Assembly (NCBI GenBank): GCA_001275005.1
Contig: JWZX01003203.1
Location: 1-64,000, forward strand
Direction of reading: 5' to 3'
DNA length: 64,000 nt
From: Chrysochromulina tobinii
Taxonomy: Eukaryota
Part shown: piece by piece, positions 2,799 to 38,680 of the stretch
How positions within the stretch are numbered: the stretch's first letter is position 1
Layout of the letters: each line of letters starts with the position of its first letter
Notes under the pieces: model-generated
Told to the model about the DNA's origin: nothing
The model's database searches: none
Seen by the model: the letters and a program-made list of their open reading frames with translations, nothing else
Translations under genes and position numbers: made by a program

Positions 2799-3848
2799 AT
2801 GACGCTCCTCGATGGTTCGGGCTCCGATGGTGACGTGGAGTGCCGCGCGCTGCGCGGCCGTGGCCAGCCGAACGTCGAGGATGACTTGGCCGCGCTGCCG
2901 CCGCTTCCCGAGCAGGACCTCTGCCAGATGCGCGCCGAGGCGTCGTGCGGCAACTCGCTCGTGCTCTTCCTCATATTCCTCTTCGTCGCGCCGATGCAGG
3001 CCTATGCCAACACGCAGGCCAACCTCACGATGTTGCAGCGCGCCTGGATCTTTGCGATCTACGCAGAGGCGGCGACCGCCATCTTCTGCCTGCTCGGCCT
3101 GATGTGGGACGACCCGGGCACGATCAAGCGCACGGCCGAGAACTGCTTCCCGCTGCCCGACATCGTCGCCGAGAAACTCGCCAACGGCCAATCGCTCGAG
3201 TCCGTCGGCAACGTGACGGGCGAGGACGGGCGCGTCTTCTGCATCCGATGCCTCGTGTGGCGGCCTGACGACGGCGGGAATACGCACCACTGCTCGACAT
3301 GCCAGCGCTGCGTCTGCGAATTCGACCACCACTGCGGGGTGCGCGCCGCGCGAGCATCGCTTGCGCGGAACACTTGGCCGCCTCCCTACCGCCTCCCGAC
3401 GACGCGAGCGATCCAACGCCTCCCTCTTCCCCCTCATTGCATGCTGATTGCCTCCCTCATCATGGGGGGAATGGGCAGATGAGCGATCCAACGCCTCCCT
3501 CTTCCCCCCATCTGCCCACGCCGCGCTCGCCCCATGCTACGCCCCCGCGCCACCTTCGACGCCACCTATGCCTGTTTCCTTTCCCACATTTCCCACAGGT
3601 CTTCGGCCGGTGCATCGCGGGCGACGGCTGCGGCGGCAACATGGGGTACTTCAAAACTCTCATCTTGATGGGCGTCCTCGGCTGCGGTACGTGTGTCTCT
3701 TTGATGGTCGTCTCGAGCGCCTGGACTGCAGGAGGCCCTGCATGCAAGTGCTCACCACGGCGCCCTCCTCCCCACAGGTACGTGCGTCTCTTTCATGGTC
3801 GTCTCGAGCGCCCCCTCAGGGAGCTACCCGCGCCACCGAGTAGGCTAG
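2799..3848 (+). CDS. DHHC-type S-palmitoyltransferase; exons 2799-3338, 3599-3686, 3778-3848
   Basis: FCIRCLVWRP...HHCSTCQRCVCEFDHHCG|VFGRCIAG...GNMGYF is the DHHC Cys-rich domain split by intron 3339-3598; hydrophobic segments flank it. Start codon and last intron are inferred. Confidence 0.85.
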
Positions 3849-4591
3849 CATGTCTGCACCCGAGGCTAGCATGGCAGCATGTACTTCTGGGGGTCGAGAG
3901 AGTTCCCCGTCCTGGTGCAGAGCCACATGACACACTGTGCACCCGCACAACCTGCGCACTCCGCGGACCGCCCCCCGCACACGCTCTCACGGACCGGCGG
4001 TCGCTTGGCTGACGACTGCTCATTTGGGCTTTGGGGGGGGAGCACAAGCAGGCGGGCGGGGTCTCCACGGTAATCGCGGGGTCTCCACGGTCGCACGTCG
4101 TCTCGCTGGGTGCGTCCCTCGCGACCGCGCGCGCGCGGCGGCTGTTACCGGGACTGTGACCGCCGGCGGGTCCAAGCCGGACTGTGTGGTCTCGCCGTCA
4201 CGAACCCTACAGCTTATTTTGACTAGATCACGTGCTGCCCACAACGCGACCACAGCGCCGACCAACGAACGGAATAAACGCAGTCCCTTTGTGCAGTCCC
4301 CGGCTCGAAGACGCACGGGGACGCGCGCCGCCGGTCCCAGGCCCGCGACGGACGAGACGATACGTCGAACCACGAACGTGGCTGCCTCCTAGCATCTAGA
4401 CGTGCAACGTGAGAGTACACATGCGCGCCGGGCTCGCCCCTGTTGAGAATGCGCACCCTGTTCACATCCCTCAAACCCACAATGACGATCATGGCAGGAA
4501 TGGGCGAAGTGCTCATTCCTAATTGCCACATCTCCCGATCCCGCCTGTCCATGATTCGCACCACTCGATATGCTGCCACTTCCGTCGAAGT

Positions 4592-4992
4592 TTAGAGCTC
4601 CTTCTTCGCCTTGATCTTGGGGCCGACCACCTTGCAGATCTCTCTGCAGGGAAGCGAGGAGGGATACAAGGGGGGCGCGCGTGAGCAGTTCGTAGCGGTC
4701 GCAAGGTTGGGTTGGGAATCACGCTGCGCAGCGTACCCGTGGCCCTCGATCTTGTAGCCGCCGCCCGCACAGCACGTGGCGTCTGCGCAGCAAGATTCGA
4801 GAGCACAACAGAAATAAGCATCGGCCCAGTGCACGCTCGTACGGTGGCGCGGGCGCGTGCAAAGAGCGCGAGCGCACAGTTTAGCTCAGCGTAGTCCTCG
4901 GCGAGGCACGGGTCGGACTCCTTCGGCGCGGCCGACACGGCCGACACCGACAAGATCGCGACGACGAGGAAGAGCAACTTGGAGAGCAGCAT
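4592..4992 (-). CDS. 70-aa secretory-pathway Cys-containing peptide ending KKEL; exons 4992-4878, 4782-4737, 4643-4592
   Basis: Two GT-AG introns join in frame to give MLLSKLLFLVVAILSVSAVSAAPKESDPCLAEDYAELNYATCCAGGGYKIEGHGEICKVVGPKIKAKKEL*; signal-peptide-like N-terminus and KDEL-like C-terminus. Confidence 0.7.
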
Positions 4993-5297
4993 CGTCGGGA
5001 AAGTACAAGCGTCCGCTGCAGCAGTGTGTACCCTCTGTGACGTGGCGAAAATCCCCCAACCTTCAAACCGACTGCCGCCGGGAAGAGAGCCGCTGAGCTC
5101 GGCCCCGTGTAGAGTACATGTATCTTCAAACGCGCTTTGCGCCCCCCACGATGGGTCTCCACGGGACCTGTGGCTGTGCGTCTCGCCGTGATGGCCAATT
5201 AACGTGAACGTGAACTTCAAACAGAAGGTGAGCTAAGTTGCACCCACGATCTTACACGATCATTGACAGTGATCTCGCGCCGAAGGGGCCTCGCGCA

Positions 5298-5970
5298 ATG
5301 GGTGGTGGCGAGCTCATGGCCGCAACGGCCGCCAAGTCGGCGCTCAAGTGGCTCCTGTCGATCTTGACCGCGCCGCTCTGGTTCTTTGACCGCGTCGACA
5401 AAGAGGCCTTCATCCTCTCCTTGCCCTTGGGCTTCCGCAGGCGCATGCTCAAGGTCATGTTCTGGCCCACGCTCGCGTGGACGATCCTGCTGCACCGGGC
5501 GATGCCCGACCAGCGCCGATGGTACGACCGCGTGGACAGCCGCGTCATCATCGGCGCGCTGCCGCTCAGGCGCCACCTCGACACGCTCGCGCGCGTCGAG
5601 CACGTCACCGGCCTCATCAACTTTTGCGACGAGTGGGAGGGGCACGCCGACTACCCACGGCTGGGCATGCGCCAGCTGCGGCTGCCGACGCTCGACTACT
5701 GCGCGCCGACGACGCAGCAGCTCGAGGCGGGCCTCGACTTTATCCGCCGCCAGCCGCCCGGCGGCAGCGTCTACGTCCACTGCAAGGCAGGCCGCGGCCG
5801 CGCGGGCACGATGCTCATGGCGTATCTCATGGACGAGAACGGGTGGGCGCCAGCGGACGCACAGGCGAAGCTGTCGGCCGTCCGGCCGCACGTGAGCCCG
5901 CGCCTCTGGAAGCGCCCGTCCGTCCGCGAGCTCCACCGACGAGCACAGCAGCGCGCACTGATGGCAGCCC

Positions 5971-6016
<46 letters not shown>

Positions 6017-6245
6017 ACAACCGCCGCCGGGGCACATGGGCGGGTGGGTCATTCCTCCGAGAGGAGGACCGAGCATCCGGGGGGGGGGCGCCACTGGCGC
6101 GGGCGCGGGCGCGACGGCAAGGGCCAAGCGCGCTGGATGCCATCAATGGACCTCAAGTGGCCGCAGAACAAGCGTCCACCTGGCCCTTTCCCGATGCGCG
6201 CGCCGATGGGCGGCAGCATGGCACCACCGGGGATGGCGCCCATAG
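5298..6245 (+). CDS. PTPMT1: PTPMT1-like dual-specificity (phosphatidylglycerophosphate) phosphatase, followed by polyQ; may continue to 7186 through a frameshift
   Basis: WYDRVDSRVIIGALP, LPTLDYCAP and catalytic loop VYVHCKAGRGRA resemble PTPMT1 (VYVHCKAGRSRS). Confidence 0.8.
5972..6014 (+). repeat. (CAG)n microsatellite encoding polyglutamine
   Basis: Uninterrupted run of about 14 CAG codons in the phosphatase frame. Confidence 0.9.
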
Positions 6246-7186
6246 GCGCACCCGGCGGGGGCATGCTCCCCCAGCATGGAGCGCCGGGCGGCGCGTACAA
6301 CCCCGCGATGTTCCCCTACGATGCGACTGGAGGTTGCGGCCCTTACCAGGGCGGCAGCGGCCCTACTATGGGCAGCGGCCCTAATATGGGCAGCGGTCCG
6401 GCCGATCCGAATATGGGCATCTGTCCGCTTGGCACGCAGCCCACGGGCGCCATGCCGGGCGCCATGCCGGGCGCCATGCCGGGCGCCATGCCGGGCGCAA
6501 TGCCGGGCGCCATGCCGGGCACAATGCCGGGCGCCGGCCTGGCACCGCCGCCTGGGCCCTCGATGCCCATATTAGGACCGCCAGGGCCCATGCGCCCCGC
6601 CGGGGCCTATTCTCCGGGCGGCCCTAATATGGGCAACGGTCCTAATATGGGCAGCGGACCTAATATGGGCGCCTATTCTCCGGGAGGGCCGCAGCCGCTG
6701 CTCCACAGCAACCTCATGCTCGTGCAGAGCCCCGGCCCAACGGCTGCCAGCCCCGGCCCAACGGCTGCCAGCCCGAGTGGTACCAAGGCTCCGGCCAATA
6801 CCGGTCAACCGCTTAGGCCCGTCAAGATGACCGAACTCCTCCAGTCTGTGGTGGACCGGCTGATCAGCGCCGGCGACCAGGGCAAGTCGCTGACCGTTCT
6901 GGAGATCGCAGCTCGGTACAAGGGCGGCGAGGCCACCTACCAACAGGCGATGTTGACGATGACCGGCGTGGTGGGCAGGGAAATGCTGGTGCAGGAGGTG
7001 TGCCGGCTGTCCCAGATTTCGCACATCTCTGAGTTCACCTCAAGCACCGGCACATCCATGACGAGCACGGCGTCGCCGAGCGGGGGCGGCGCCGGTACGA
7101 CCTGCACGATGGGCGCGCCGACGACAGCCCCGATGGTGGCTTTGCGGAGCGACAGCGAGCAGCAGAGACCAGGGGCGGAAAGATGA
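6086..7186 (+). CDS. Pro/Gly/Met-rich region with C-terminal RST-like helical domain (either the phosphatase C-terminus after a frameshift or a separate gene)
   Basis: Frame of ORF 5477..7186 gives (GAMP)n, (GPNMGS)n and (SPGPTAA)2 repeats, then PVKMTELLQSVV...ARYKGGEATYQQAMLTMTGVVGREMLVQEVCRL, which resembles RST domains by eye only. Confidence 0.5.
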   Translation, partial: GRHWRGRGRDGKGQARWMPSMDLKWPQNKRPPGPFPMRAPMGGSMAPPGMAPIGAPGGGMLPQHGAPGGAYNPAMFPYDATGGCGPYQGGSGPTMGSGPNMGSGPADPNMGICPLGTQPTGAMPGAMPGAMPGAMPGAMPGAMPGTMPGAGLAPPPGPSMPILGPPGPMRPAGAYSPGGPNMGNGPNMGSGPNMGAYSPGGPQPLLHSNLMLVQSPGPTAASPGPTAASPSGTKAPANTGQPLRPVKMTELLQSVVDRLISAGDQGKSLTVLEIAARYKGGEATYQQAMLTMTGVVGREMLVQEVCRLSQISHISEFTSSTGTSMTSTASPSGGGAGTTCTMGAPTTAPMVALRSDSEQQRPGAER

Positions 7187-7447
7187 TCGTTCGACTGAGA
7201 TCTGCTTCGGCTTCTGCTTCGTGCTTCCGGAGCGCGGAGGCCGCCGCGCTGCTCCGGGGTTCATCCTTGTGCTCAGACTCCAGGCGAGTGTATAGGCTGT
7301 TTGAAATGTGGAAAACAAGTGGTTGCATACCCACGGAGAAGCCAGTCAGGAACGTACTACTACATCCGGGAAAAAAGCGCCGGCGTGGGCGAGCTCGCGA
7401 GATCTGGAGTGGCGAGCACTCCTCCCTCGTGGTTTTTTCCGTCTAGG

Positions 7448-7913
7448 ATGGTGGCTCGACTCACGCTGCTGCTCGCGCTGTGCTCGATGCTCCAAGCCAC
7501 CGTCGCGCTGACGGTCGCGCCGATGCGGGTATGCGCGGCCACGCGCGGGTCGGTCGCGATGGCTGAGGGCATGCGGTCAGGCGATAGCGTGAAGGTCATC
7601 TCCGGCGCCTCCAAGGTGTGTGCTATTGAGGCCCAATCTATGTGGCCCCGTCCACGATCGCCCAGCCCTATGCCGACCGCCCCGCCCCCTCGCAACGTTG
7701 TATCGCCAGGGTATGGTTGCGAAGCTGCTCATGCTTGACATGAAGAAGGGCAAGGCGATCGTTGAGGGCGTCAACATGCGCTCGAAGCACGTGAAGCCGA
7801 TGAAGGAGGGCGAGTCGGGCAGGATCCTGAAGAAGGAGTTCCCGATTGCGATCAGCAACATCAAGCTTGAGAGTGCCGCAGAAAAGGCCCCCGCGGCCGC
7901 ACCTGCGGCATAG
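7448..7913 (+). CDS. rpl24: Nuclear-encoded plastid-type 50S ribosomal protein L24 with bipartite targeting peptide; exons 7448-7615, 7710-7913
   Basis: GDSVKVISGASK|GMVAKLL...AIVEGVNMRSKHVKP...GRILKKEFPIAISNI is a bacterial-type uL24 KOW domain; N-terminal signal peptide plus Ala/Arg-rich transit-like segment. Confidence 0.9.
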
Positions 7914-9643: not shown

Positions 9644-9808
9644 CGCATGCGCCCGTCTCAGCGGACGAATTATCGTGCCATTACAGAGCCTTTACTGCCT
9701 ACTTCGGAAGATCCTGAGTCACGTTACATGTATCCAACGTCCCTCGTAGAGAGGCAGGAGCCAAAGTACAAACGGCGCCGTTCGGGGCGCTTGACGTTTG
9801 TTTTACTC

Positions 9809-13529: not shown

Positions 13530-15453
13530 CTAACCCTCCTCATCATCCTCATCTTCGCCCTCCTCGTCCTCGTCCTCGCCCTCGTCCTCCTCCTCGCCCT
13601 CCTCCTCGCCCTCCTCCTCACCCTCCTCCCGAAGATTGCCATCTTCTCCTTCAAGTTCGTTGCGCACGGCGTCCATGGCGGCCATCAGCACGAGCAGATG
13701 GCTGCTGATGCACGCGAGCTGACAGCCCCGCGCCGTGGTCGCGTACTCACCATCTCCGAACCGTACGCTGTCGGCCGCCTTGGCAGCCGCGCACGCCTCC
13801 TCGAGCCGTTCAGGTGCGTCCTCGCCATCAAGGTTCAGGTCGGGCAACTCCAGCTGCTTGCTCACCGCGTCGAACGCCATCCCAATCCATTTCTCGATGA
13901 GCTCGAGGGCAGCAAGGTCCGTCTCGGATAACCTAGGGCGATCGACCTTCGCACCATTTGCGAGCATATCCATCTCTGCAAAGACCTCCCGGACCGCCTG
14001 TGCTCGCGCGTGCATCGTCACGTCGACACCGCCTTCGATCTCGACTCCAACCTCGCCTCCACACTCGTAGACCGTACTCCACTTTCGGACAAACTCCTCC
14101 TCAGTCATGCATGCGGCGCGAGCTAGGGCAAGTAGGTATGAGGGTAATGGGTCCGAGTGGCTCAGGCGGCCGCACTCGTTGAGCGCATCTGGCGCTTCGA
14201 AGGCTGCTCGAAATGCATGCAGCTCACCCTCGAACCCTTGACGATGCACCTCACGTTGCACCTGGCCCTCCACGTCACCCTGCCGTGTGATGGCAGCGAC
14301 GGCCTCCAGCAGCGCACTTGGCACGAGCGTGGCGAGGTTGACGACCTCGTAGGGATTATCCCACATCGCAAAGCCGTAGTGGACGAGCGACAGGTTCGGC
14401 TTCGTGCCGTAGCTGAACAGCACGTCCGCCCCCCGCTTGATCGGCACCTGCACGAGCATCCGTCCAGTTGCTCTATATGGCTCCGCCTCGAGGCCGCTGC
14501 CGCCAGTGCTTGTGCCGCCATTGCTTGTGCGTGGGCCGTCGCTGGATGGGTCGCGCAATTGGTCGTGCGATGGAGCAGGGCGGCTTTGGTTTGGCCAGCC
14601 TGTATTGCATTGCCCGTGATCGTGGTTGAGCATGTCGAGCAGAGGGATCATGACCCCATCCTCGAGATCGTCGCTCGCCTGATGAGGGAGGCAATCAGAG
14701 GCAATCAGCAGCCATCAGCGGGAACATCACCCCGTCATCGAGATTGCTTCTCGCCTGCTCTCCGAAGACGCCTGCGGGGAAGCTGCGTGTAGAGTATGAC
14801 GAGTGCGACCAGAGCCAGGCGGCGCGCGTGAAGATATGAGCTGGGAACAACGTCGGGTGGGCGTCAGACAGGGTGGGGAAGAGACTGTCGTATTGTCCGT
14901 TCAAATGCAGCTCGAGCGCCTCGACCTCTGTGCGTATCGCCATGTGCCCGATCTGGTTGGGAGACGAGTACCATGTGAAGGGTGTGGTGTAATCGGTCGG
15001 GAGCGAAGCTGCATACGGCTCCCATGCAGCCCCCTTTGCTTCGACGAACCGCTGATGAATCAGGTAGGCGTATAAGACTGATCGGCGTGAGATTATCCGC
15101 ACGCTCACATCGTCATCATCGTTGTCGCGGTCGCCCCGTCGACGCTCCGCCCATGCCCGTCGCTCCGCCTCGAGATTGGAAGCGACACGCAACGTTGGGC
15201 ATGCAATGATCGATTCGCCCACCGTCGACTTCATGGCCACCTCGGTCGTCACGAAGAGAGCGTGAGGAATTGATATGGCGCAGTGGCCAGGCAGGAGGTT
15301 TTTGGTCGCAATGAAGCCGCGCATGCTAGGACCTTGAACGAGCTCGCATCCGTCAAGGGCGGCACCGTTACGGATGCACCACTCGAGCAACTCAGCGTCA
15401 CTATTCTTCGCGGCGTTAGCCTTGCGCGCGCGCTTGCGCGAGGAAGTCTTCAT
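13530..15453 (-). CDS. SET-domain protein lysine/histidine methyltransferase (SETD3/Rubisco-LSMT-like); exons 15453-14755, 14678-13530
   Basis: RGFIATKNL, WEPYAASLP, STRSF, MIPLLDMLNH, VLFSYGTKPNLSLVHYGF motifs; a 76-nt intron joins the two ORFs in frame; acidic tail. Confidence 0.88.
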
Positions 15454-15705: not shown

Positions 15706-15800
15706 TCGGAATATCGAAGTGCTCGGAAGGTCGCGAGAAACCGAGGCTTGCTTACCGAGGTGGGCGGTCCCCGCACCCGCTTACAAAGCGCGCGATCGCG

Positions 15801-19971: not shown

Positions 19972-22096
19972 TCACAACGGCTCGCCCCACGGAAGGCGCC
20001 GGCCGAGCAGATCGAACAGCTTCTGGTTGAACGGCAGAAAGTAACGGTGGAGCAGCGCCGCGGTCTCGTCTGTCATCTTGTAACGGCTCACGCCATCCTT
20101 GCCTTTGATCACCTCGCCTTCCCTTCGCGCCGCGCACGGGCCAAGAATGTCGTCACCATCGTCGCCGTCGTCGCCGCCCTCGTCGCTCGAGCCGTCCAGT
20201 CGACCTGCTCGCCATTCTCGAACGGGCGACGCCACGTCGTGTGGGTTAGTCGCGCTCGAGGCCGCCTTACCCACCACACACAGCCTGTGGCCCGAAGGAG
20301 GGAGGGGGCGCAACGGTGAGAAAGGCACGTGAGAAAGGCACGTGAGAAAGGCACGTGAGAAAGGCACGTGAGAAAGGCATTCCCACAGGGGCCTAGGCGT
20401 GCAGGCGGCGAGCGGCCACGTCACCGGTCGTGCTTGGGCTTTGGCAGCTCCATCTCTCGTAGGCCCAGGAAGCTGATGACGTCCTTCATCACTGCGGTCG
20501 CGTCGCGCTCGAGCTCCTCGGTCGCAAGCACCTTGATCTGTGAGCGCGGGAAGGCAGCGTACCACGCCGCCAAATTGGATGCATAGCGCGACGAGCGCCA
20601 CACACCTGATGAGGGATGCAATCAGCATGCAATCAGCATGCAATCAGCATGCAATCAGCATGAAATCAGCCCGCCACACACCAGCCCCAGGTACGAGCAT
20701 GTACTGCTGATGAGGGATGCTATCAGCATGCAATCAGCATGCAATCAGCATGCAATCAGCATGCAATCAGCATGCAATCAGCATGCAATCAGCATGCAAT
20801 CAGCATGCAATCAGCCCGCCACACACCCGCCCCAGGTACGAGCATGTACTGCGAGCATGCGCTGACTCGACGCATGCCCTCGGCGTAGGCGTCGCGCTCG
20901 GCGTCGGTGCGCCGGCCCGCCAGCGCCTGGCGCGTGCGGAAGAGCGCCGCGACGTCCTCGCCTAGCGACGTGGAGAGGATGCATGCCTTGGTCTCGTTGG
21001 AGAGGGTCACCTCATCGCCGCCGTATTGGCCCCATCCCAAGGACGCACCGCACTCGCGTAATGCGACCTCGACGAGACCGAGGCGCGCCTGCGCGTCGAA
21101 GGAGAAGACCTCGCGCATCATGCGGATCTCGGGCAACGGCTGGGGCTTGAAGAAGCCTGTGGCGCGCGCCAGCGACGCGTTCGCGGGCATGGCCGGTGCG
21201 ACGAAACATGACGAATCCTTGAGCCAATCGACCCCGGCGCGCCAGTGGGAGTACGTGCGTTGGATGGGATCGCGGAGCAGGACGAGATGCTTCGCCTCGG
21301 GTACCCATTTCTTCACCCAGAGCGGCGCGAGCAGCGGCGCGTTGAAGACCGTCGGTGAGGCGTCGAGGGTGATCGCGCGCGCGTCTTGGCGGGCGACCGG
21401 CGCAAAGTTGGCCGCGTAGCTCGAGCCCGTGTGGTACCTGTAGTTGGGCAACGTGAGGTAGCGAGGCTCCTTGTTGAGGGGAGCCTCGACGTCCGGGTGG
21501 CTCAGCAGCCGCGCGTACAGGCTCGTCGTGCCGCAGCGCATCTCGCCAAGCAGGTATACGGCCGGCAGGCATGAGACGTTGCCGCTCTCCTCAACCCAGC
21601 ACGGGTTGGCGCGCGGGAGACGCTGGCCGCAGACGGTCGTCGCGCGCATTGCGTCGAGGTGATCAGCGGCCGGGTGCACGCATGATGAGTTGGCTGAGGC
21701 CGCCTGTGACCCGGGCTCGCACGACTCCTTTTGCAGCGAGTAGCATCCACCACTTCCCGCGGCCGCAGCCCGCTTGCGTGAGCGCCTGCGGTTGCGAGCA
21801 CGGCGCGCCCTTAGCCGAGCGTGATCGAGCTTGTTGGCCATGACCGGATCGAAGCGCGAGGCGCCGCGGCCGGCCAGATCGACCACGCGGCGGTAGGAGA
21901 CACGGCTAGCCTGCTCGCGCTGCATAACACCGGTCGGAGAGGGCCCTCGCCGACGCGTGATCAGGTGCATGCAGGCGGCAGCGGTTGCCGCAACGAAGAG
22001 CACGGCTAAAAAGGCCTGCGCAGTGCTCAGGCCTTGACGCTGAGGAGGGTCGTCCTCGTCTTCCGATCGCGCAGGCCGAGGCCGAGGCGCGTCCAT
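19972..22096 (-). CDS. Type II membrane sulfotransferase (heparan-sulfate 3-O/N-sulfotransferase-like); exons 22096-20827, 20605-20425, 20284-19972
   Basis: N-terminal TM, 5'-PSB-like LLGEMRCGTTSLY, 3'-PB LLRDPIQRTYSHW, and C-terminal YFLPFNQKLFDLLG; both introns keep the frame. Confidence 0.85.
20316..20379 (-). repeat. 13-nt tandem repeat (GTGCCTTTCTCAC in sense, ~5 copies) inside sulfotransferase intron 2
   Basis: GTGAGAAAGGCAC units visible on the + strand. Confidence 0.9.
20606..20826 (-). repeat. Repeat-filled intron: two (GCATGCTGATT)n arrays each ending CCCTCATCAG, separated by a copy of the upstream exon end
   Basis: 11-nt unit AATCAGCATGC on the + strand; internal exon-junction copy at 20672-20706. 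Confidence 0.9.
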
Positions 22097-27774: not shown

Positions 27775-27859
27775 CTCTGTGAAGGCTGACCTTTTCGCGT
27801 TGAAGGGCCCTAGCCGGCCCTGGTGTGATTGCTTGCGCCGGACGATTTTCACGCCAAAA

Positions 27860-28454: not shown

Positions 28455-28679
28455 TGAGAGTGTCTTCTTTACATCTTAAATAGCGCGAATAGCAACAGAC
28501 TAGGTCTAGGAAAAACGCTGCCGCTCAATGACCCGGCAACGGGACTGCGACGCTCGCTCCGGGCGCGCGGGCCTCTTGTGTGGGCACCCCGCTCCGTTCG
28601 CGATTCGGTTGTAACACTCGTACAGGTATGATTGCTTGTGATGGCCGTCGTGATTGCTTGTGGCATCTTGCACATCTCG

Positions 28680-31505
28680 TTAGGGATTGCCAATTATGGC
28701 TTCTGATATATGGTCTGCCTCGGCTGCTCCGCGGCGAGAAACGTCGTCGACGATGTCAACTCCGCTGCTCGTGCTCCCAGCCGGTGTGGGGCCCTCGGTC
28801 GGGCCCCTCGGCGACACGATGGCGATGGTCTGTGCGTCGCCCCCGCCTGGCCCGTCGTCGTCATTTTCGTGCAACTCCGCATCCACTTCGATGGACGAGT
28901 CGAACATCGACGTGCGGTTTTTGCCGCGCTTGCCGCCGCCCTCCGCATTGCTCTCGATTATCTGGTACTTGAACACCCACTTCATCGTGCCGCTCTGCGA
29001 ATCTATCTGGCGCTCGCCGCAGTTCAGGTTGAGCCAGCCCCATCGCTGGAGCGTATAAATCTGAAGCTCGAGCCGGAGTACCTGGCGCGCGTAGGCGACC
29101 CGCCACTCGAGCGTCGCGTTCCGCATCGTATTCGCATACGTTTCGCCCATCATCGCGATCAGGAGATTGAGCAGCAGCACGAGCGCCATGATATAGTACA
29201 TGATGACGCTAAGGAGGAAGGCGAGGAAGGCCAAATTTTTCCACACGGCCTTGGCCGAGCTGGTGTCGAAGCCGTTCCACGCGGCGATGTCGAGTGCGAT
29301 ACGTTCGCCGATGAGACCGGCCTCGATCAAGCTCCAGAAAGCTGGCCAGAATTTCTCGAAGTTGGGGACGGGGTCCGCCGTCGCTAGCATCGAGTCGCTG
29401 AAGTTGGGCGGGTAGCACACGTACATGACTACCCCGTAGTTGAGAATGAAGATGGCGAAGAGCACTAGCCAGTTGCTCACGTCCTTGCCGAGCATCTTGA
29501 AGCACACTGTGTACAAAACGCCGAGCCTCTCCAGGGGCGAGAGGAGCGCTTGAAAGAAGGCGCTTGTGTGGAGCAGAAGCCCGATTGCGAGCGGCACGAG
29601 CAGGCTCGTGAGCTGCTCCGCGGGCTGGTCGTGCGTGGCCGCGTCCCACCACGGCTCGTTGGGCTCGCGCTTCGAGGCCGCGCGGAAGGAATGGAGCTGA
29701 AGCACCACGAGGATGGCGCACAGCCATCCGATTACGCGCATGAGCATCTGGTTCGAGCTGCACCACCGGAGGAGGAGCAGAATATCAGACCAACTCCGCG
29801 CGCGGAAGCTCTCGTCAGCTTGCTTAGCCGCGACCCGCTCCGTCAACCACCAACCGACTGCCGAGCGCACGTCCTCTTCGAGCATCGGCACGATGCACGC
29901 GAGCGTTGCGTATGGCAGGTAGTGCGCCACCAGCCGGGTACCCACGTCGCCGTCGGCTCCACCTGCGTCATCGTCGTCCGCAAAGTACAGCATCGCTTGC
30001 GGATAATTCTTAATTAGCATGGTCGTTGCGCAGAGGCAGAGGAGGTACGCGAGGTCGAGCACGCGCATGATGATGAAGATGGCGCGGCCGTAGCGCTGGA
30101 ACTTTTGGGTCAAGAGCTTGTGGAAGATGCCGTCGACGAAGCTGTCGAGCAGCATTTCCTGCGTTTCGGGTAGCGCGTCAAGCTTGCCCAGGAGCTCCAG
30201 GATGCTCCTGGGCTCACGCCACTGGGTCCCGATGGAATCGATGCCACGCATGTCGATGTACCAGCTCGAGACTGGACCCCACACCCACTCGCAGGTGGAC
30301 TGCTTGCGCAGGATATACTGCACGATGCGCTTGTCGCCTAGCTTGACACCGAGACCCAGTGGCGTGAGCGCCGCCCACTGATGTCTGTGTCCTTGCTGCG
30401 AGAGCGCGAACGGACTCGCGCACACCTTGTCGAACGTGATCGGCAGCCCGGGCAAGTCGATCAGGAAGTTGAACATGCCCGTGAGCGAGTTGGCGACGGC
30501 CACGTGCAGGGGTAGGAAGCCGGTGAGCGGGCATGCGTTCTTCGGGTCGTTCAAGTCCACCAGGCCCGCCATCCCCGGCTCACGCTGGCTCGCGAGCAGC
30601 AGCGTGGTGAGTGCGCGCTGCAGCGAGAAGGAGACGAAGTACGAAAATGGATTCGACCCATAAAAGTCCATCGGATCGCTCGTAAAGAAGACGCCAGAGG
30701 TGACCGCGCGGAACGTCTCGCGCAGCGCCTCCGGGTGCAACTCGCTCATAGCGATCACAATCACCCGGCACAGCTCGTCCTCCCTCTTGTTCACGGCGAG
30801 GATGTGCAGCGCGTTCTCGCCCTCAAAGGGTTGGCCAATGTGACGGAGCGGGATGAGCCCCGGGCGCGCTTCGAAGGCCTTGAGCACGAGCTCGAGCGAT
30901 GCGGGCACGTTCGAGACGAGCAGCCCGTGATGTGGCCGCGCGCCCGCGCCGTCGAGTCTGCGCGCGAAGCAACGCCTATCCGGCATCGAGTCGTCCTCTT
31001 CAAGCAGCAGCGCGAGCAGCAGCTTCTCGAGCACGTAGAGCGATGAGACGCTGGGAACGACGGCCTTGTCCTTGCGAAGGTGGTCAAAGTAGACGCGCGG
31101 GTAGCGGTACAGGTTGCAGTACCCCGGTTGAAGCGTTGCTGGCTTGCCGTTGATGGGGAAAGGCAGCCTTATGGGCTTGGCCCATGTGACTGAGTGCTGC
31201 GCGTCGGTGCGCCCCGATAAGGTGACCTCTACCTCTATCTCGCAAGACAACTGCCCATCCGGTGCGCGGAACGGCACGAGCACCGTGTGTGCCATCCGCC
31301 CGTCGCTGAAGAGCACCTCTACCTGTAGCTGCTTTCTGGCCCATAAACCTCGTTTCTGCGGAGACGACGAGCCCTTTCCACGATCACTCCGTCCTAGAGT
31401 GGACTTGGAGGGTGACTGCATCGGCGACTGCGACGGCTCATCGCCAGAGGTCGCGGCAGAGGCGACCTCGGCTTTGGAGACCGGCCGGACCTTCGCCAGC
31501 CTCAT
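28680..31505 (-). CDS. TRPV-like cation channel with ankyrin repeats
   Basis: GENALHILAV, LPLHVAV, LTPLGL ankyrin motifs; WVWGPV; multiple TM segments; S6 and TRP box LLLNLLIAMMGETY...LEWRVAYARQVLRLE; intronless. Confidence 0.9.
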   Translation of the reverse strand: MRLAKVRPVSKAEVASAATSGDEPSQSPMQSPSKSTLGRSDRGKGSSSPQKRGLWARKQLQVEVLFSDGRMAHTVLVPFRAPDGQLSCEIEVEVTLSGRTDAQHSVTWAKPIRLPFPINGKPATLQPGYCNLYRYPRVYFDHLRKDKAVVPSVSSLYVLEKLLLALLLEEDDSMPDRRCFARRLDGAGARPHHGLLVSNVPASLELVLKAFEARPGLIPLRHIGQPFEGENALHILAVNKREDELCRVIVIAMSELHPEALRETFRAVTSGVFFTSDPMDFYGSNPFSYFVSFSLQRALTTLLLASQREPGMAGLVDLNDPKNACPLTGFLPLHVAVANSLTGMFNFLIDLPGLPITFDKVCASPFALSQQGHRHQWAALTPLGLGVKLGDKRIVQYILRKQSTCEWVWGPVSSWYIDMRGIDSIGTQWREPRSILELLGKLDALPETQEMLLDSFVDGIFHKLLTQKFQRYGRAIFIIMRVLDLAYLLCLCATTMLIKNYPQAMLYFADDDDAGGADGDVGTRLVAHYLPYATLACIVPMLEEDVRSAVGWWLTERVAAKQADESFRARSWSDILLLLRWCSSNQMLMRVIGWLCAILVVLQLHSFRAASKREPNEPWWDAATHDQPAEQLTSLLVPLAIGLLLHTSAFFQALLSPLERLGVLYTVCFKMLGKDVSNWLVLFAIFILNYGVVMYVCYPPNFSDSMLATADPVPNFEKFWPAFWSLIEAGLIGERIALDIAAWNGFDTSSAKAVWKNLAFLAFLLSVIMYYIMALVLLLNLLIAMMGETYANTMRNATLEWRVAYARQVLRLELQIYTLQRWGWLNLNCGERQIDSQSGTMKWVFKYQIIESNAEGGGKRGKNRTSMFDSSIEVDAELHENDDDGPGGGDAQTIAIVSPRGPTEGPTPAGSTSSGVDIVDDVSRRGAAEADHISEAIIGNP

Positions 31506-32168: not shown

Positions 32169-35100
32169 ATGCCCAAAACCGGCAGCAAGAAGTCGAAGAA
32201 GAAGCATGCCCAGCAGCCCGCGTCGCAAGCCGACGCCGACGATGAGACGTTCGATGATCACAACGAGTTTGACGACGATGCCGGCCCCGCCTCGCTCACT
32301 GCACCCACGGGCTTTGACAACACCGTCGCCTTTCCGGGCGCCGAAGACGACGAGGACGACGACGAGAACGATGGCGCGGACGGCGACGACGGACCGCGCA
32401 AGCCCAAGGGCAAGGGCAAGACGGGCGGCTTCCAATCCATGGGGCTCAGCCCGTATATTTACCGGTCGGTGATGCGCAAGGGCTACCGTGTGCCGACGCC
32501 CATCCAGCGCAAGGCGATCCCACCGATCCTGGCCGGGCGCGACGTGGTCGCAATGGCGCGCACGGGTTCGGGCAAGACGGCCGCCTTCCTGATCCCGCTC
32601 ATCGAGAAGCTCGGCGCGCACGCGTCCGTGGTCGGCGTGCGCGGTCTCGTGCTATCGCCCACGCGCGAGCTCGCGATGCAGGTGCGCTGCTTGCCGAGGA
32701 TTGCCGCTGGTTGCCGCTGATGGCCATGGTTGTCACTGACCATCGCGCTCTTGCTCTCCCATTCACGCTCGCGCGCGTACCGGTACCAGACACATAAGTT
32801 CTGTCTCGAGCTCTCACACTTCGTGCAGCCTCCGATGCGCTTCGCTCTGGTGGTGGGCGGAGACGCGATCGAGGAGCAGTTCGAGACGCTCGCGCGCAAC
32901 CCCGACGTGCTCGTCGGCACTCCTGGCCGTCTGCAGCACGTCCTCGTCGACGCGCAGCTCTCGCTGCAGGTGCCGCTGAGTGCCGCTGAGTGCCGCTGAA
33001 TGCTGTTGAGTGTTGTTGAGTGCTGCTGATGACCACCGATGGCTCTCGTCGCAGCGTGTGGAGTACGTGGTGTGCGACGAGGCTGATCGTCTCTTCGAGA
33101 TGGGCTTTGCCGCGCAGCTCGATGCAATCTTGCAATCTGTGCCGCCCACGCGCCAGACGCTGCTCTTCTCGGCTACGATGCCGGCGTTGCTGGCCGACTT
33201 CACACGCGCGAACCTGCATGACCCTCAGCTCATCCGCCTCGGTGCGCGCATGGTGGCCTCTGATGCCCTCTGCTGCCCTCTGATGGTCTCTGATGGTTCC
33301 TGATGGCCTCTGCTGCCCTCTGATGGTCTCTGCTCGCAGACCTGGACACCAAAGTGTCGGACACCCTCGAAATACACTTTCTGCGCGTGCGGCCACAGGA
33401 GAAACTCGGCGCGCTCCTGGTGCTCCTCGGGCAGGTAACCGCGTGATAGCCGCTCATGGCCGCTCGTGGCCGCTTATGGTCTCTGATTGCGATCGGATTG
33501 CTCGTGGTCTCTGATTGCGATCGGATTGCTCGTGGTCTCTGATTGCGATCGGATTGCTCATGGTCTCTGATTGCGATCGGATTGCTTGTGGTCTCTGATT
33601 GCGATCGGATTGCTCATGGTCTCTGATTGCGATCGGATTGCTCGTGGCAGACCTTGCCGCGCGATCAGCAGACGATCGTCTTTGCGTCCACCCGCCATCA
33701 TGTCGAGATGCTCTACGAGCTCCTTCTCACGGCTGGGTATGCATGCGCTGCCATTTATGGGTCACTCGACCCGGCGGCCCGCAAGATCGCCTTGGGCAAA
33801 TTCCGGGCGGGCAAGGCGAAGGTTCTGATTGTGACCGACGTGGCGGCGCGTGGCATCGACGTGCCGCTGCTCGACAACGTGGTCAACTTCGACTTCCCGA
33901 CGAAACCCAAATTATTCGTCCATCGTGCGGGGCGTGCGGGGCGTGCGGGGCGTGCCGGGACCGCCTTCTCGCTCGTCGAGCCCGAAGAGCTCCCCTATCT
34001 CGTCGATCTCCACCTCTATCTCGGCCGCAGATTGCGCCCAGTGCCGCTCGGGGGACTGCCCAGCGCCGGCGAGGGCGAGGGCGAGGGCGAGGGCGAGGGC
34101 GGCAGTGCTCTGGCACCGACCGACGTGCCGTTTGCCGTCTTCCCACCAACACTGCTCGAGAATGTGTGCTGAGTGCCGCAGAGTGCCTTTGGATGCCTCT
34201 GAGCGCCTCCTAGCGCCTCTGAGCGCCTCTGAGCGCCTCTGATTGCCTCCCTCATCAGGAGGTCGAGTACGCCCAACGGCTGCTCGATGCGAACCCGGAC
34301 CTCGGCCAGCTCTTCGGCGTCGCCCAGCGCTCGCTGCAGATGGTGCGCAAGACGCGTGCGGCGGCCTCGAGGGCGAGCGTCTCGCGTGCTCGTGAGCTGC
34401 CCGAGACGCTCGGGATCCATCCGCTCCTCGCGCATAGGTCACGCTGATTGCCCTCTGATTACCCTCTGATTACCCTCTGATTACCCTCTGATTACCCTCT
34501 GATTACCTTCTAGCTCTATGACGAGACTCGAACTGTCTTCCTCCATGGAAGTTTACACCACAAAACTGATTTAATGAATCCGAGAGCTTTATGTCCCACC
34601 AATGCCAACGAGTGCCAACGAGTGTGAACGAGTGTGAACGAGTGCCATGAGAGCTCACGATTGGCAACCGTCCATTCCTCCTCGTAGGGTTGACGTCGGT
34701 GCCGAGGCGCGCCGCTCAGCCATGCTCACCGAGCTCAAGACATTCAAACCGGGGCGGGAGTCTACCGCGGTGAAGAGCCTCGCTGTGAACTCATGGCCAC
34801 CTTGCTCGTCTGCTTGATTGCCTCCTTGATTGCCTCCTTGATTGCCTCCCTGATGCCTCACGGATTGCCTCCCTGATTGCCTCCTTCATCAGGTGAACAG
34901 CCTCAAGGGTAACAAATTGGCCGAAGCAGGCAAGCGGGCGCCGTCGCTTCCGCCGCCGCCCACGTACGCTGCAGTAGCAGCTGCGGCCGCGGGCATAGCT
35001 GCCAAGGCTGGAGGGACGAGCAAGCGGGCATCTGCTGCTGCCGCCGCCGCCGCGGGTGATCCAGGCGCTCGCCACGGCGCTCTGGACGCCGACGCGGCGG

Positions 35101-36228
35101 GCCCATCTCACGGCGCCCGCCACGGCGCGGGGCCATCGCACGGCGGGGCCGAGATCTCGGAGATCTCCATGTTTGGCGAGTCGAAGGGCACCGATCGCTC
35201 CACCACGGCGCCCACCACGGCGCTGCCGCGCCAAAAACGCAAGCGCGAGCCCAACGACTACCGCGACAGCGCCTTCTACATGGCGCATGAACGGCCGGTC
35301 GATAAGGGGGCGCTCGCAGCCGCAGCGTCGGACGAGTACTTGCGCGTGCATGCGGGCGAGCGCAAGCTTGATGAGGCGGTGCTCGACCTCGTCGAGGACG
35401 AGCGCGACGGCCTCAAGAAGCGCCGCTCCGTCCTCAAGTGGGACCAAAAGAAGCGAAAGTATGTTCGCGAGGTGCTCGGACAGACGGGTGTTGGCGCTGC
35501 TGTGGGCGTGGCCGACCGTGGCAAGAAGCGGCTGCGGGATGAGAGTGGACAGCTGGTCAAGGAGAAAGCCAATCTGTAAGTGCCTCTGATGGCCTCGCTG
35601 ATGGCCTCGCTGATGGCCTCACTGATGGCCTCTCTGATGGCCTCGCTGATGGCCTCACTAATGGCCTCGCTGATGGCCTCTCTGATGGCCCCTGATCGCC
35701 CCCCTCATCAGGTACGAGGAGTGGAAGAAGAAATCGAAACGTCGCATCCAGCAGCCCGGTGAAGCAGAGAGCTCCGAGGCGGGTGAGTCGTACGAGCTGC
35801 GGAAGCGCACCAAAGGCGGCCGCTTCTACCATACGTTGACGAAGCCGTTGCCTAATGCGGACGTCAAGAGCGAGCTGCGATCTGAGCAGCAGATTGCGAA
35901 GATGCGCAAGGAAGAGGCGAAAAAGGGAGCCAAGGGCGGCGGCAAGGGCGGCGGCAAAGGAGGCGGCGGCAAGGGCGGTGGCGGCAAAGGGGGCGGCGGG
36001 AAAGGAGGCGGTGGCGGAAAGGGCGGCGGCGGAAAGGGCGGCGGCAAGTTTGGCAGCGGCAAGGGCAGCAGCAAGAGCGGTGGAAAGGGTGGCGGCAAGG
36101 GTGGCGGCAAGGGCGGCGGCAAGGGCGGTGGCGGCAAGGGCGGTGGTGGCAAGGGCATGGGCAAAGGCGGCGGCAAGGGCGGCAAAGGCGGTGGCGGTCG
36201 TGGCATAGGCAAGAAGGGCCGAAGGTGA
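32169..36228 (+). CDS. DDX54: DEAD-box RNA helicase DDX54/DBP10; 9 exons: 32169-32681, 32790-32969, 33055-33241, 33340-33434, 33651-34163, 34259-34437, 34688-34769, 34893-35575, 35712-36228
   Basis: [66 protein letters not shown], and DBP10-type C-terminal [10 protein letters not shown] and [10 protein letters not shown]; all eight GT-AG introns preserve the frame. Confidence 0.93.
33477..33646 (+). repeat. 28-nt minisatellite (~6 copies, TGGTCTCTGATTGCGATCGGATTGCTCG) filling DDX54 intron 4
   Basis: Directly visible. Confidence 0.92.
34512..34588 (+). ncRNA. Intronic box C/D snoRNA, snR51/SNORD57(U57)-like, predicted guide for 18S rRNA Am100 (yeast numbering)
   Basis: Terminal stem AGCTC (34512-16)/GAGCT (34584-88); box C variant ATGACGA 34518-24; box D variant CCGA 34580-83; guide AACTGATTTAATGA (34564-77) is complementary to conserved 18S UCAUUAAAUCAGUU; the D+5 base (T34575) pairs with the A of GGCUCA, the known Am100/Am99 site. 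Located in intron 6 of a ribosome-biogenesis gene. Confidence 0.85.
35586..35700 (+). repeat. 12-nt minisatellite (CTGATGGCCTCG, ~9 copies) filling DDX54 intron 8
   Basis: Directly visible; the intron ends CCCTCATCAG. Confidence 0.92.
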
Positions 36229-36521
36229 ATACAACTGAAAAGCAGATGTGGACGTGCGGCGGTGCGTGCGGGTGGCCTCTTACGGCTGGCCCCGACCGCG
36301 GGAGCTGTTAAAAATGAGCGAGGTTAGGCAGGTTTGAAAGTGGTGCCTCGCGAACGAACGCTCATCACGGAACTCAAAGTCTCAACAACGAGCGCGCGCT
36401 CGCTTAATTAAGTTTTTCGTCCGTCCCACCCGCGCCTTACTGGCACATCGGTCATCGCAGGGAGCGCCGAGTGCCACATCTCGTCTACGGCGTACGGTAC
36501 CAAGAAATCCTGCTACGTACG

Positions 36522-36616
36522 GTACATTGAATCCTCAAAGCCACCCTAATGATGACCGCAATCCTGATACGTACATTGAATCCTCAAAGCCACCCTTAGA
36601 TGATGACCGCAATCCA
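36522..36616 (+). repeat. ~45-nt tandem duplication (period 49) just past the GT77 stop codon
   Basis: GTACATTGAATCCTCAAAGCCACCCT..ATGATGACCGCAATCC occurs twice. Confidence 0.9.
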
Positions 36617-36627
36617 GCGCAAAGCAT

Positions 36628-38680
36628 TCAATCCGAGGTGATGATGGCTGCCTGTCGGAGAGCCGTCTCGACCCAGCTGAGCTGCGGCTCTCCTCGCCAC
36701 GCCCTCTGTCCCTCGAGCGGCGGCAGCAGGTAGGGCACGAGCCCCGCCGAGCGCCGGAAGCGCTCGTCCGAGGTACAGCACCAGCCGCCGAGCAACTGCT
36801 GCGCGTCGCGGTGGAACGGGACGAGATAGCGCGAGGGCGTTCCGTCGGGTTCGTCACTCAACCGCCCGAGGGCATGAGAGGCGTCCTCCAGGTGAATACG
36901 TGGCGTCGCGGCGAAGGGAGCGAGCGCAGCGAGTACTGCGCCCGATGAGGGCGCAGGTGGCAGCTCGATGCGCGCCACTTTGCTGTTGCTGCCATCGCTA
37001 CTGCTGCTGCTGCCGCTGCTCTTGCTGCCGCTGCTGCTGCTGCCGCTGCTGCTGCTGCCGCTGCCGCTGCTGCCGCTTCTGGCCGCCGCGCTGCCGCCGG
37101 CGGCGACACCCACGAGCAAAACCAGCTCCTTGACAGCGCGCGGTGTGCGTTCGGCGCGTAAAAAGGAGCGTTCGCGCAGGACGAAGGGCGACTTGCCGAA
37201 GTGCTCGGGCATCAGCCAATGGTCGATGGTGCAGTTGTATGGGATCGGGGTGCTCGGGTGGCCAGCGCCCCGGCAATCCGGCTGCACGTGACGCGGATGA
37301 AAGCCATACTCGCACGCACAAAGCACCGGTTCCGGCAGCACGAGGGCGCGATGTAGCAGGCGCGCGAGGAAGAGGGCGTTGCGCAGTTGCGCGATCTGCA
37401 AGCGCATGAGCCGCAGGCCTGGTCAGTGGCAACTGGTCAATGGCAACCCGTGGCGATCAAATGCACTCAGATGCAATCAATGGACCTCCATGAGCAGCAC
37501 TGACCTGCACGCGCATGAGCCGCAGATGAGTCCTTGGTAGCGTCGTCCCGCCGTCTGATCGACGTGGCAGCTCCGACGGCGCCACGAGCAGTGGAGCGGG
37601 AATCTGAGGCGTGTACGAGAGGTATCCTGCCCACGAGCCCCCCTCGCCGCCCTCGCCGGCTCGATGACGGTGCCGGCCTGCCATTGCGCCTCGGCTCGCC
37701 GTCGCGCCTCGGCCCGGCGTCGCGCCTCGCGCGTGGACGACCTCCGCTTCGTCATTCCACAGCCCTGCCTCACGAAGCCTTGCCAGCTTTACGGCCGGCT
37801 GCTGTACCCGCGCAAAGGTCGCATGGACGGCGTAGGGCAGCACATGCGCGGCCGCGTGCAGGCGCAGCACGCCGTGCGTGAGCAAGTTCCCAAACTGCGC
37901 GATCGGAAGCACGCCCGCGACCACAGTCCCATTCACAAGGCCGCAAAGACGTCGCCCACGAGCGTCCGAGATGGCGAAGAGCGTACGGCGCCAGCGCCAC
38001 CGGTCCGCCCCCTTCTTCCAGCGGTAGTTGATCGGCCCCTGGTCGACGCGTCGCAAATTGCCGGGCAGCAGCAGATGCGCCATCGCCTCGCGGATGGCGC
38101 GAATGGCGCCGTCGCGAGCGCCCGGAGGGAAGTGCATCAGACCGATATTGAGCGACTCATGGCAAGCGCGTGCGTGCTCGAGGTCGAGGTCGCCGCCGTC
38201 GCCGCTTTCAACGGCGTCACCAACGCTCGGGCTGAGACGCTGGGCGTCAGTGGGGCCTTGCGCATCGCTCGAGATGGCCAGGTCCATGAGCGGATGCGCC
38301 GCCTCGAGCTGAAGGAGGTACGGCCTCGGGTCTCGCAAAAAGACGACATCACAGTCCGAGAGCAGGACACGCGCGCCTGTCCGGAGCAGCGGTAGCACGT
38401 GGAACCAGCGGCCGCCCTGCGCGTTCGAGCCCGCTTCCTTCGACACCGCCGAGAAGCCGATCGCTCCATATGGCCGCAGCGCAAGATTCATGCCAGCGAA
38501 CGTCTGCGTTGCCGGCGACGCCTGCAGCAACCCGACCAGTATCCCGCGCACTCCGGCGCGGTGCAAATGGGCCGCCCAGTTGACCGCGAAACTCAACGCT
38601 TTGACATTGGCGAAGGTTACCACGATGGTGTTGTCGACGGCGTGCCTTGAGACGAGCCGGCGAAGGTCGTCGACCGCCAT
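36628..38680 (-). CDS. Nucleotide-diphospho-sugar transferase (GT77, XEG113 arabinosyltransferase-like); intron 37504-37396; true start uncertain (frame open to 38857)
   Basis: IVVTFAN, VLLSDCDVVFLRDP (DxD), LNIG, DQGPIN, YAVHATF, KLARLREAGLW, QLRNALFLARLLHRALVLP. Confidence 0.82.

What the first reader, a model, noticed from the sequence alone, without database searches (positions are those of the whole stretch)
3406..37525. Candidate intron-generating system: repeat-filled introns flanked by variable-length exon duplications that supply one splice site
Seen: in five unrelated genes (DHHC, SET, sulfotransferase, DDX54, GT77) one intron end copies the adjacent exon over roughly 10-39 nt. Most of these introns are filled with tandem units built on CTGA(T/G) (TGATTGCCTC, TGATTGCATGC, TGATGGCCTCGC, TGAGCGCCTC, TGATTACCCTC, TGAGTGCCGC), always in the transcribed orientation whichever strand the gene is on. 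Five introns end in a shared CTGAT(T/C)GCNNCC(C/T)TCATCAG (14679, 20606, 34258, 34892, 35711). Two mirror configurations occur: insert supplies the AG and the duplicate supplies the GT/GC, or insert supplies the GT and the duplicate supplies the AG. Either way splicing restores the original mRNA. Known: Introner elements of Micromonas and Aureococcus co-opt a splice site from a target-site duplication, but those are short DNA transposons with short fixed duplications and terminal inverted repeats. Inference: a conserved 3' end, ragged 5' end, variable repeat count and variable duplication length fit target-primed or telomerase-like repeat addition at staggered breaks, i.e. a different route to intron gain. 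I cannot tell from the sequence whether this family has already been described.
Basis: partly seen in the sequence, partly recalled or inferred. Interest (0 to 1): 0.9.

Follow-up and report, generated by a model that had tools for sequence, protein, structure and literature searches.

The report
Introns that seed new introns
In a freshwater haptophyte alga, many short introns are bracketed by 11-55-base copies of the neighbouring exon, and a few carry sequence taken from another intron, which likely means that existing intron ends are copied into new gene sites during DNA repair, a route to new introns that would need no transposon.

Summary
Real, spliced and recurrent, but probably not telomerase or a retroelement. 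The host is a Prymnesiales haptophyte. RNA contigs join all four DDX54 introns tested. In 135 non-redundant metagenome sites ending in the same 3' motif, 118 are followed by GT/GC and 62 carry an upstream copy of the next exon's start (11-55 nt, median 25; swapped controls 3 of 799). A second, non-repetitive 3' cassette (20 of 31) and a donor-carrying mirror unit (12 of 16) show the same footprint. Four donor-acceptor pairs, two between unrelated genes and two within a gene, share 6-14 nt homology at a junction. Best reading: microhomology-primed copying of existing intron ends into a break or stalled fork, with selection keeping the spliceable outcomes. Unspliced ORFs of relatives lack introns at DDX54 positions i1-i6 (indirect). 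Two of the five motif introns have no duplication, and no strain polymorphism could be tested. Introner surveys filtered out low-complexity families. This scan noted the same footprint before on another piece of this genome (e1-2577349).

The parts
3406..3508 (+). Insertion inside older DHHC intron 1 (3339-3598): perfect 28-nt duplication (3406-3433, 3481-3508) around a 47-nt filler made of a motif-1 piece plus an inverted copy of the local flank; makes no new intron
   Evidence: sequence
3687..3777 (+). DHHC intron 2: 35-nt copy of the next exon's start supplies GT; second (non-repetitive) 3' cassette at about 3738-3777 supplies AG
   Evidence: score 29, p<=0.0002; frame restored; splicing not tested with RNA
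14679..14754 (-). GC-AG intron of the SET-like gene: degenerate 35-nt exon-start copy (27/35), 3 repeat words, motif-1 end
   Evidence: splicing not tested with RNA
20606..20826 (-). Sulfotransferase-like intron: 10-nt exon-start copy, 11-nt repeats, motif-1 end; a nested second event duplicates the previous exon end and donor inside it
   Evidence: splicing not tested with RNA
32682..33650 (+). DDX54 introns i1-i4 (32682-32789, 32970-33054, 33242-33339, 33435-33650): older repeat-filled introns; i2 has a 13-nt exon-end copy supplying AG
   Evidence: positions spanned without interruption by unspliced ORFs of relatives
34164..34258 (+). DDX54 i5: repeats plus motif-1 end, no detectable duplication; spliced GT..AG
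   Evidence: RNA joint in X18
34438..34687 (+). DDX54 i6: two repeat types around unique filler; spliced GT..AG; no significant anchored duplication
   Evidence: RNA joint in X15 and X18
34770..34892 (+). DDX54 i7: 12-nt exon-start copy (11/12) supplies GT, repeats, motif-1 end; spliced
   Evidence: RNA joint in X17 and X18
35576..35711 (+). DDX54 i8: 12-nt repeats plus motif-1 end, 3-nt match only; spliced
   Evidence: RNA joint in X15 and X18
37396..37504 (-). GT77-like intron, mirror form: own GT, degenerate repeats, then a 21-nt copy of the previous exon's end (20/21) that supplies the AG
   Evidence: p<=0.0002; only this AG restores the frame; splicing not tested with RNA

Best explanation
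These are spliced introns flanked by 11-55-nt duplications of the adjacent exon, likely made when a broken or stalled DNA end primes on an existing intron-exon junction through a few matching bases, copies part of that intron, and rejoins its own gene at a second short match. The stretch between the two matches would be duplicated, so its length varies with where homology is found. Inside exons, selection would keep only outcomes that splice cleanly: insert gives AG and duplicate gives GT/GC; insert gives GT and duplicate gives AG; or duplicate gives both. Insertions into older introns survive without that constraint and give the nested arrays. Because each product is itself a ready donor, rich in branch-point-like CTGA(T/G) words (a recalled consensus), a few intron-end cassettes would spread without a transposase or fixed element ends. 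Shown: the anatomy, its excess over chance, splicing of four introns, four donor-acceptor pairs. Inferred: the repair or template-switch chemistry, direction of copying, the role of selection, and net intron gain. Open: whether the template is DNA or unspliced pre-mRNA.
For: Footprint: 62 of 135 non-redundant motif-1 sites have an anchored exon-start copy scoring >=10, against 3 of 799 swapped and 0 of 404 dinucleotide-matched controls; 26 distinct lengths, 28 perfect copies; 118 of 135 are followed by GT/GC. Of 42 events whose first copy is not preceded by an older motif, 38 start GT/GC; a frame is open over 120 nt after removal in 33 and with the insert retained in 8. Not tied to the repeats: cassette 2, 20 of 31 against 0 of 573; donor-carrying mirror unit, 12 of 16 against 1 of 301, several of the 12 being nested or repeat-derived matches. 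Donor-acceptor pairs: L051 and L110, unrelated genes, share a 73-nt intron (2 differences) whose first 20 nt match L110's exon while L051's exon matches for 12 nt; L134 carries 9 nt of L074's exon-derived copy plus its insert, joined at a 13/14-nt match to L074's exon; two neighbouring introns in L094 share a unique 43-nt insert, with 6 and 3 nt of junction homology; L108 has an inverted copy resembling a nearby intron with 7 nt shared exon start, read through in frame. Same-locus intron tails are more alike than cross-locus tails (4 of 67 pairs against 0.9% of 9801 at score >=22; pairs not independent). The 5' junction falls inside a repeat word with >=2 bases from the duplicate in 10 of 63 events against 1.4% in controls. 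Splicing and real assembly. Unspliced ORFs of relatives (62-82% identical) run through DDX54 positions i1-i3 (P0122, P0128), i1-i4 (P0131, P0138) and i5-i6 (P0243) before ending in non-homologous, intron-like sequence.
Against: 73 of 135 motif-1 sites have no duplication scoring >=10, including two of five in the window. A first microhomology test by repeat period was not convincing (2 of 16 against 7% in controls), and 50 of 63 junctions show none in the second test. Only four donors were traced, from about 210 kb of loci selected by the motif itself. The 127:3 sense bias and the lack of arrays outside introns in the window are stronger than random repair predicts and need cis-templating or transcription coupling as well as selection. 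Intron absence in relatives is read from proteins whose DNA I could not see; i7 and i8 have no such test, and two relatives appear to have introns 1 and about 5 codons from i5 (P0280, P0244), which sliding of an old intron could also explain. No empty allele was seen: seven locus pairs from different assemblies differed only by substitutions and, in two pairs, repeat-length gaps, but they were selected for carrying the motif. The loci are assumed, not shown, to be the window's species (none overlaps the window).
Confidence: 0.58

Rival explanations
1. Target-primed reverse transcription: a LINE-type enzyme nicks at G(T/C) and copies intron-containing RNA (or a small non-autonomous element ending in the motif), giving variable duplications and ragged 5' ends.
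For: Variable duplication length, exact 3' end and 5' microhomology in a minority resemble non-LTR insertions (recalled). A sense pre-mRNA template could produce every configuration seen, including L108, and would help explain confinement to genes.
Against: No poly(A) or 3' repeat tail; the repeats lie upstream of the fixed end. No shared body among 141 sites beyond repeats and specific pairs. The mirror unit has a fixed 5' end. Median duplication 25 nt, up to 55, is longer than the roughly 7-20 nt I recall for L1. A crude RT motif scan of the window and loci found 0 hits, which is weak because the genome was not available.
Confidence: 0.2
2. Old introns remodelled: intron positions are ancient, minisatellites expand inside them, and local duplications across a splice junction followed by loss of the older part renew the intron without net gain.
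For: Nested events are common: 20 of 63 first copies follow an older motif, and many duplications overlap an existing donor. Relatives have introns close to i5.
Against: 43 of 63 first copies follow plain exon; 118 of 135 following exons start GT/GC, unlike most non-motif window introns; inserts move between unrelated genes; relatives' ORFs span i1-i6.
Confidence: 0.1
3. Telomerase-like repeat addition at staggered breaks.
For: A relative's read-through ORF (P0280) shows what is compatible with the same layout (five-residue exon-start copy, then LTLTLT, then the exon out of frame), i.e. CCCTAA-type repeats, the telomere motif reported for Phaeocystis globosa (PMC11347835, passages). L137 holds an intron-like run of CCCTAA ending in CTAACCAG, with no long duplication.
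Against: Here the unit differs from intron to intron (10-13 nt, many variants), a non-repetitive cassette behaves the same, and donors are specific introns. This organism's telomere repeat is unknown. The P0280 case is one protein, DNA unseen.
Confidence: 0.07
4. Ordinary DNA-transposon introners with decayed ends.
For: Introners are reported in many haptophyte genomes (PMC9860276, supplement rows); the 20-nt motif has 5-nt self-complementary ends.
Against: No fixed duplication length (26 lengths), no paired terminal repeats at both insert ends, no end-to-end family in most sites.
Confidence: 0.05

Closest known systems
Introner / introner-like elements (Polarella and Symbiodinium classes, bioRxiv 10.1101/2020.10.14.339549, parts 1-2 of 4 read; survey PMC9860276, passages and supplement rows; PMC12130899, passages)
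   Same: One or both splice sites are recruited from a target duplication and splicing restores the mRNA; all three geometries seen here are described there (element gives AG, element gives GT, both sites from the duplication). Haptophyte introners are listed, including a Chrysochromulina sp. family that carries its 5' site with a 4-bp duplication.
   Different: Described classes have fixed 3-9-nt duplications and end-to-end similar bodies, often with terminal inverted repeats. Here duplications are 11-55 nt and variable, one end is ragged, bodies are mosaics, and donors are ordinary introns joined at short homology. Both surveys say they removed families whose similarity came from simple repeats.
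[quoted passage not shown]
   Same: [quoted passage not shown]
   Different: There, sporadic gains with short repeats and mostly untraced filler. Here the filler is repeatedly an existing intron end, the repeats are long, and the process recurs at very many sites.
Intron transposition and intron transfer (definitions in PMC3296678, passages)
   Same: An existing intron is copied to a new position; L110 to L051 is such a pair.
   Different: Reverse splicing leaves no duplication and transfer needs a paralogue; here the genes are unrelated, homology is 6-14 nt, and usually only part of the donor is copied.
Tandem genomic duplication (definition in PMC3296678, passages)
   Same: A duplicated exon segment supplies splice sites; the 'both sites' class (12 of 127 hits) is close.
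   Different: A foreign filler carrying branch-point-like words lies between the copies (the scan required one, so filler-free cases were not counted).
Non-LTR retrotransposon / SINE insertion by TPRT, and interstitial telomeric insertions (recalled, not read here)
   Same: Variable duplications, a ragged end with microhomology, repeat filler.
   Different: No tail, body or single repeat unit; mirror polarity exists.

Membership tests
Introners (DNA-transposon type) | Splice site co-opted from a target duplication, mRNA restored | tested here: met
Introners (DNA-transposon type) | Fixed short duplication (3-9 nt) per family | tested here: not met
   11-55 nt, 26 distinct lengths among 62 events; duplications under about 10 nt are below my detection threshold
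Introners (DNA-transposon type) | End-to-end similar copies with defined boundaries at both ends, often terminal inverted repeats | tested here: not met
   one fixed and one ragged end; among 141 sites only repeats and a few specific pairs are shared
Introners (DNA-transposon type) | Absent from orthologous sites in relatives | tested here: inconclusive
   relatives' unspliced ORFs span DDX54 i1-i6; indirect, DNA unseen, i7-i8 untested
Introners (DNA-transposon type) | Mobilising transposase with matching ends | not testable with these tools
   no genome held
Non-LTR retroelement / SINE (TPRT) | Variable-length target duplication | tested here: met
Non-LTR retroelement / SINE (TPRT) | 3' poly(A) or simple-repeat tail abutting the duplication, and a shared body | tested here: not met
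   mirror unit with a fixed 5' end
Non-LTR retroelement / SINE (TPRT) | Partner reverse transcriptase/endonuclease | not testable with these tools
   crude motif scan of window and loci, 0 hits; genome not held
Telomerase-added interstitial repeats | Insert is one homogeneous unit equal to the telomere repeat | tested here: not met
   many units and a non-repetitive cassette; the telomere repeat itself was not determined
Intron gain by break repair with filler | Direct repeats overlapping splice sites | tested here: met
Intron gain by break repair with filler | Junction microhomology and traceable templated filler | tested here: inconclusive
   clear in four pairs; enriched in 10 of 63 junctions; not significant in the period test
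Intron gain by break repair with filler | Presence/absence polymorphism in populations | not testable with these tools
   joined forms in other runs not given; locus pairs pre-selected for presence

The most novel reading that the evidence does not exclude
Haptophyte introns propagate themselves without any transposon: intron ends act as autocatalytic donors that break repair or pre-mRNA-templated synthesis pastes into genes, on a genome-wide scale, with each lineage amplifying its own branch-point repeat (CTGATTGC-type here, telomeric CCCTAA in relatives). This would be a non-transposon engine of mass intron gain that introner surveys filtered out.
Probability: 0.35. Interest if true: 0.9.

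Novelty: new variant of a known kind. Interest (0 to 1): 0.72.

Why it matters
Where new spliceosomal introns come from is a long-standing question, and PMC12130899 (passages) states that introners are the only mechanism able to explain bursts of gain. Here the footprint recurs at dozens of sampled sites, with young perfect duplications and identifiable donor introns, so direction, template and junction rules can be tested directly in a culturable alga. It also affects gene annotation in haptophytes: exon-start copies inside introns and nested motifs invite wrong junctions.

Tried and rejected
No genome was held, so there was no genome-wide count, and the metagenome records could not be extended. 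Motif 1 and the CCCTAA-type pattern gave 0 hits in viral contigs; the latter gave 2 hits in prokaryote genome bins, probably foreign or chimeric contigs. Rfam: 0 matches in the window. Folding five introns: four no better than shuffles, one repeat array z -3.4, so no structured RNA element is claimed. A profile search with P0280 returned ordinary DDX54 proteins and no further read-through repeat introns among 426 stored proteins. The period-based microhomology test was not convincing. Drift of the 5' copy towards a better donor is suggestive only (19 of 315 mismatches at positions 2-6 against 43 of 1211 beyond). Assembly artefact was rejected for i5-i8 because DNA contigs hold the unspliced form and RNA contigs the joined form, though run X1 may be the window's own source. 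RNA was laid only on 34105-35925, so the other junctions rest on reading frames. Literature: ten searches found no description of this layout in haptophytes; PMC4580454 (passages) says nothing of it; the motifs were not found in the cut supplement table of PMC9860276, which showed no sequences in the rows seen; its appendix PDF, its sequence repository, the PMC12130899 datasets and the Emiliania genome paper (recalled to mention 10-11-bp intronic repeats) were not seen and may bear on novelty.
Full report
Host and setting. The window is eukaryotic, about 60-69% GC. The nearest named relatives of its proteasome alpha subunit are Haptolina brevifila at 93%, Prymnesium parvum at 88% and Emiliania huxleyi at 84%, so it is a Prymnesiales haptophyte; runs that hold it are mixed-culture and freshwater metagenomes. 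No whole genome was held.

Observation. I scored 16 window introns for anchored copies of the adjacent exon against 5000 random positions each. Five are clear: DHHC 3687-3777 (33/35), sulfotransferase-like 20606-20826 (10/10), DDX54 34770-34892 (11/12), GT77-like 37396-37504 (20/21 at the 3' end) and DDX54 32970-33054 (13 nt at the 3' end). The SET-like GC-AG intron has a degenerate 27/35 copy by direct reading. The five motif ends are as stated, but two of them have no real duplication. The DHHC intron has no repeats, and the feature at 3406-3508 is a 28-nt duplication around a 47-nt filler inside an older intron, part of the filler being an inverted copy of the local flank. Removing the introns restores long frames. 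On 34105-35925, RNA contigs skip all four introns as GT..AG (X18 four, X15 two, X17 one) while DNA run X1 holds the unspliced sequence; contigs cannot show splicing efficiency.

Beyond the window. Keeping only terminal motifs with 200 nt upstream and 70 nt downstream and removing redundant sites left 135: 118 are followed by GT or GC and 62 have an upstream copy of the next exon's start scoring 10 or more, against 3 of 799 swapped and 0 of 404 dinucleotide-matched controls; lengths are 11-55 nt, median 25, 28 perfect. In a near-identical set that included the window, 43 of 63 first copies follow plain exon and 20 follow an older motif. Of 42 fresh events with enough flank, 38 begin GT/GC, and a frame is open after removal in 33 against 8 with the insert kept. 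A general scan for duplications around repeat filler gave 127 hits: 49 where the duplicate gives the donor, 15 the acceptor, 12 both, 51 neither; the last group mixes insertions into older introns with repeat noise, and I did not curate these classes.

The repeats are not the cause. The DHHC intron ends in a second, non-repetitive cassette found 73 times in the same data (a few being loose matches); 20 of 31 terminal copies have the duplication, against 0 of 573 controls. A unit that starts with its own GT has a copy of the previous exon's end downstream in 12 of 16 sites against 1 of 301, several being nested or repeat-derived. So the fixed end is whichever end carries the splice site, which selection for exact splicing predicts without any polarity in the mechanism.

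Donors. L051 and L110 encode unrelated proteins yet share a 73-nt intron with two differences; its first 20 nt match L110's next exon, while L051's exon matches for only 12 nt. L134's insert begins with 9 nt that belong to L074's exon-derived copy, and the switch lies in a 13/14-nt match. Two neighbouring introns of L094 share a unique 43-nt insert, each with its own duplication (13 and 43 nt) and 6 nt of shared exon start. L108 has an inverted 78-nt insert plus duplication that resembles a nearby intron, shares 7 nt of exon start with it, and reads through in frame. Tails within a locus are more alike than between loci (non-independent pairs). Junction microhomology is enriched but present in a minority: 10 of 63 against 1.4%; an earlier period-based test gave 2 of 16 against 7%. 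Non-anchor arrays are 127 in the same orientation and 3 opposite.

Age. I could not fetch orthologous DNA. DDX54 homologues that end in non-homologous, intron-like sequence, and so appear to be called on unspliced DNA, run through i1-i3 (P0122, P0128), i1-i4 (P0131, P0138) and i5-i6 (P0243), and have their own breaks elsewhere. This fits lineage-specific gain but is indirect; i7 and i8 are untested, and P0280 and P0244 break within about five codons of i5. P0280 is compatible with the same layout built from CCCTAA-type repeats, the telomere motif reported for Phaeocystis globosa (PMC11347835, passages); this is one protein.

Mechanism. The simplest account of all of this is microhomology-primed templated insertion: an end primes on an existing intron-exon junction, copies part of the intron and returns at a second short match, duplicating the target between the two points; selection keeps the spliceable products, which become new donors. 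A DNA or a pre-mRNA template would both fit, and the strong sense bias and confinement to introns suggest local or transcription-linked templating. I give this 0.58, TPRT by a retroelement enzyme 0.2, remodelling of old introns 0.1, telomerase-like addition 0.07 and ordinary introners 0.05.

Relation to known systems. It works like an introner in how splice sites are recruited (10.1101/2020.10.14.339549, parts 1-2 read; PMC9860276, passages) but fails the fixed-duplication and defined-ends tests. It works like intron gain by break repair (PMC3020277, PMC3296678, passages) but with long duplications and intron-derived filler at many sites. Haptophyte introners are listed in PMC9860276's supplement, and both surveys removed low-complexity families, so this family would probably have been excluded; their sequence files were not seen. 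Ten searches found no description of it.

Verdict. A real and recurrent intron-generating footprint, best filed as a new variant joining break-repair gain and intron copying; interest 0.72.

Noticed in passing
   Followed up: partly
window 28626-28690 (+): Degenerate TGATTGC-type repeats right after a CAG|GT, downstream of a small gene's stop; possibly a 3' UTR intron.
   Followed up: no
window 34239-34258 and other motif-1 ends: The 20-nt motif has 5-nt self-complementary ends, and its last 7 nt are the reverse complement of a common repeat word, so antisense arrays also end in AG; a fold-back origin of the motif is possible.
   Followed up: partly
L001:1-374 / L112:250-440: Antisense motif-1 units with their own exon-like copy sit inside an intron of a plus-strand gene, like a captured piece of another gene's junction.
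   Followed up: partly
L137:640-725: Intron-like run of CCCTAA ending in CTAACCAG interrupts an ORF on a contig binned with an archaeon; probably eukaryotic or viral DNA.
   Followed up: partly
L138:1-31: CCCTAA repeats joined to a bacterial-type cyclophilin/FKBP-like gene at a contig end; probably a chimeric contig.
   Followed up: no
P0121 (matches window 32350-32640): A database protein joins a segment identical to this DDX54 with unrelated prokaryote-like sequence on both sides; probably an assembly chimera.
   Followed up: no
window 60448-61127 (-): 126-bp tandem coding repeat, about five copies, TPR-like by its 42-residue period (label recalled).
   Followed up: no
PMC11347835: Phaeocystis globosa strains carry rhodopsin genes with 0, 3, 7 or 10 introns, a ready test set for rapid intron turnover in haptophytes.
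   Followed up: no
window 35141-35784: Freshwater RNA run X18 differs from the window at 11 listed positions in DDX54 exons, so a distinct natural population splices the same junctions or lacks these introns; contigs cannot tell which.
   Followed up: no
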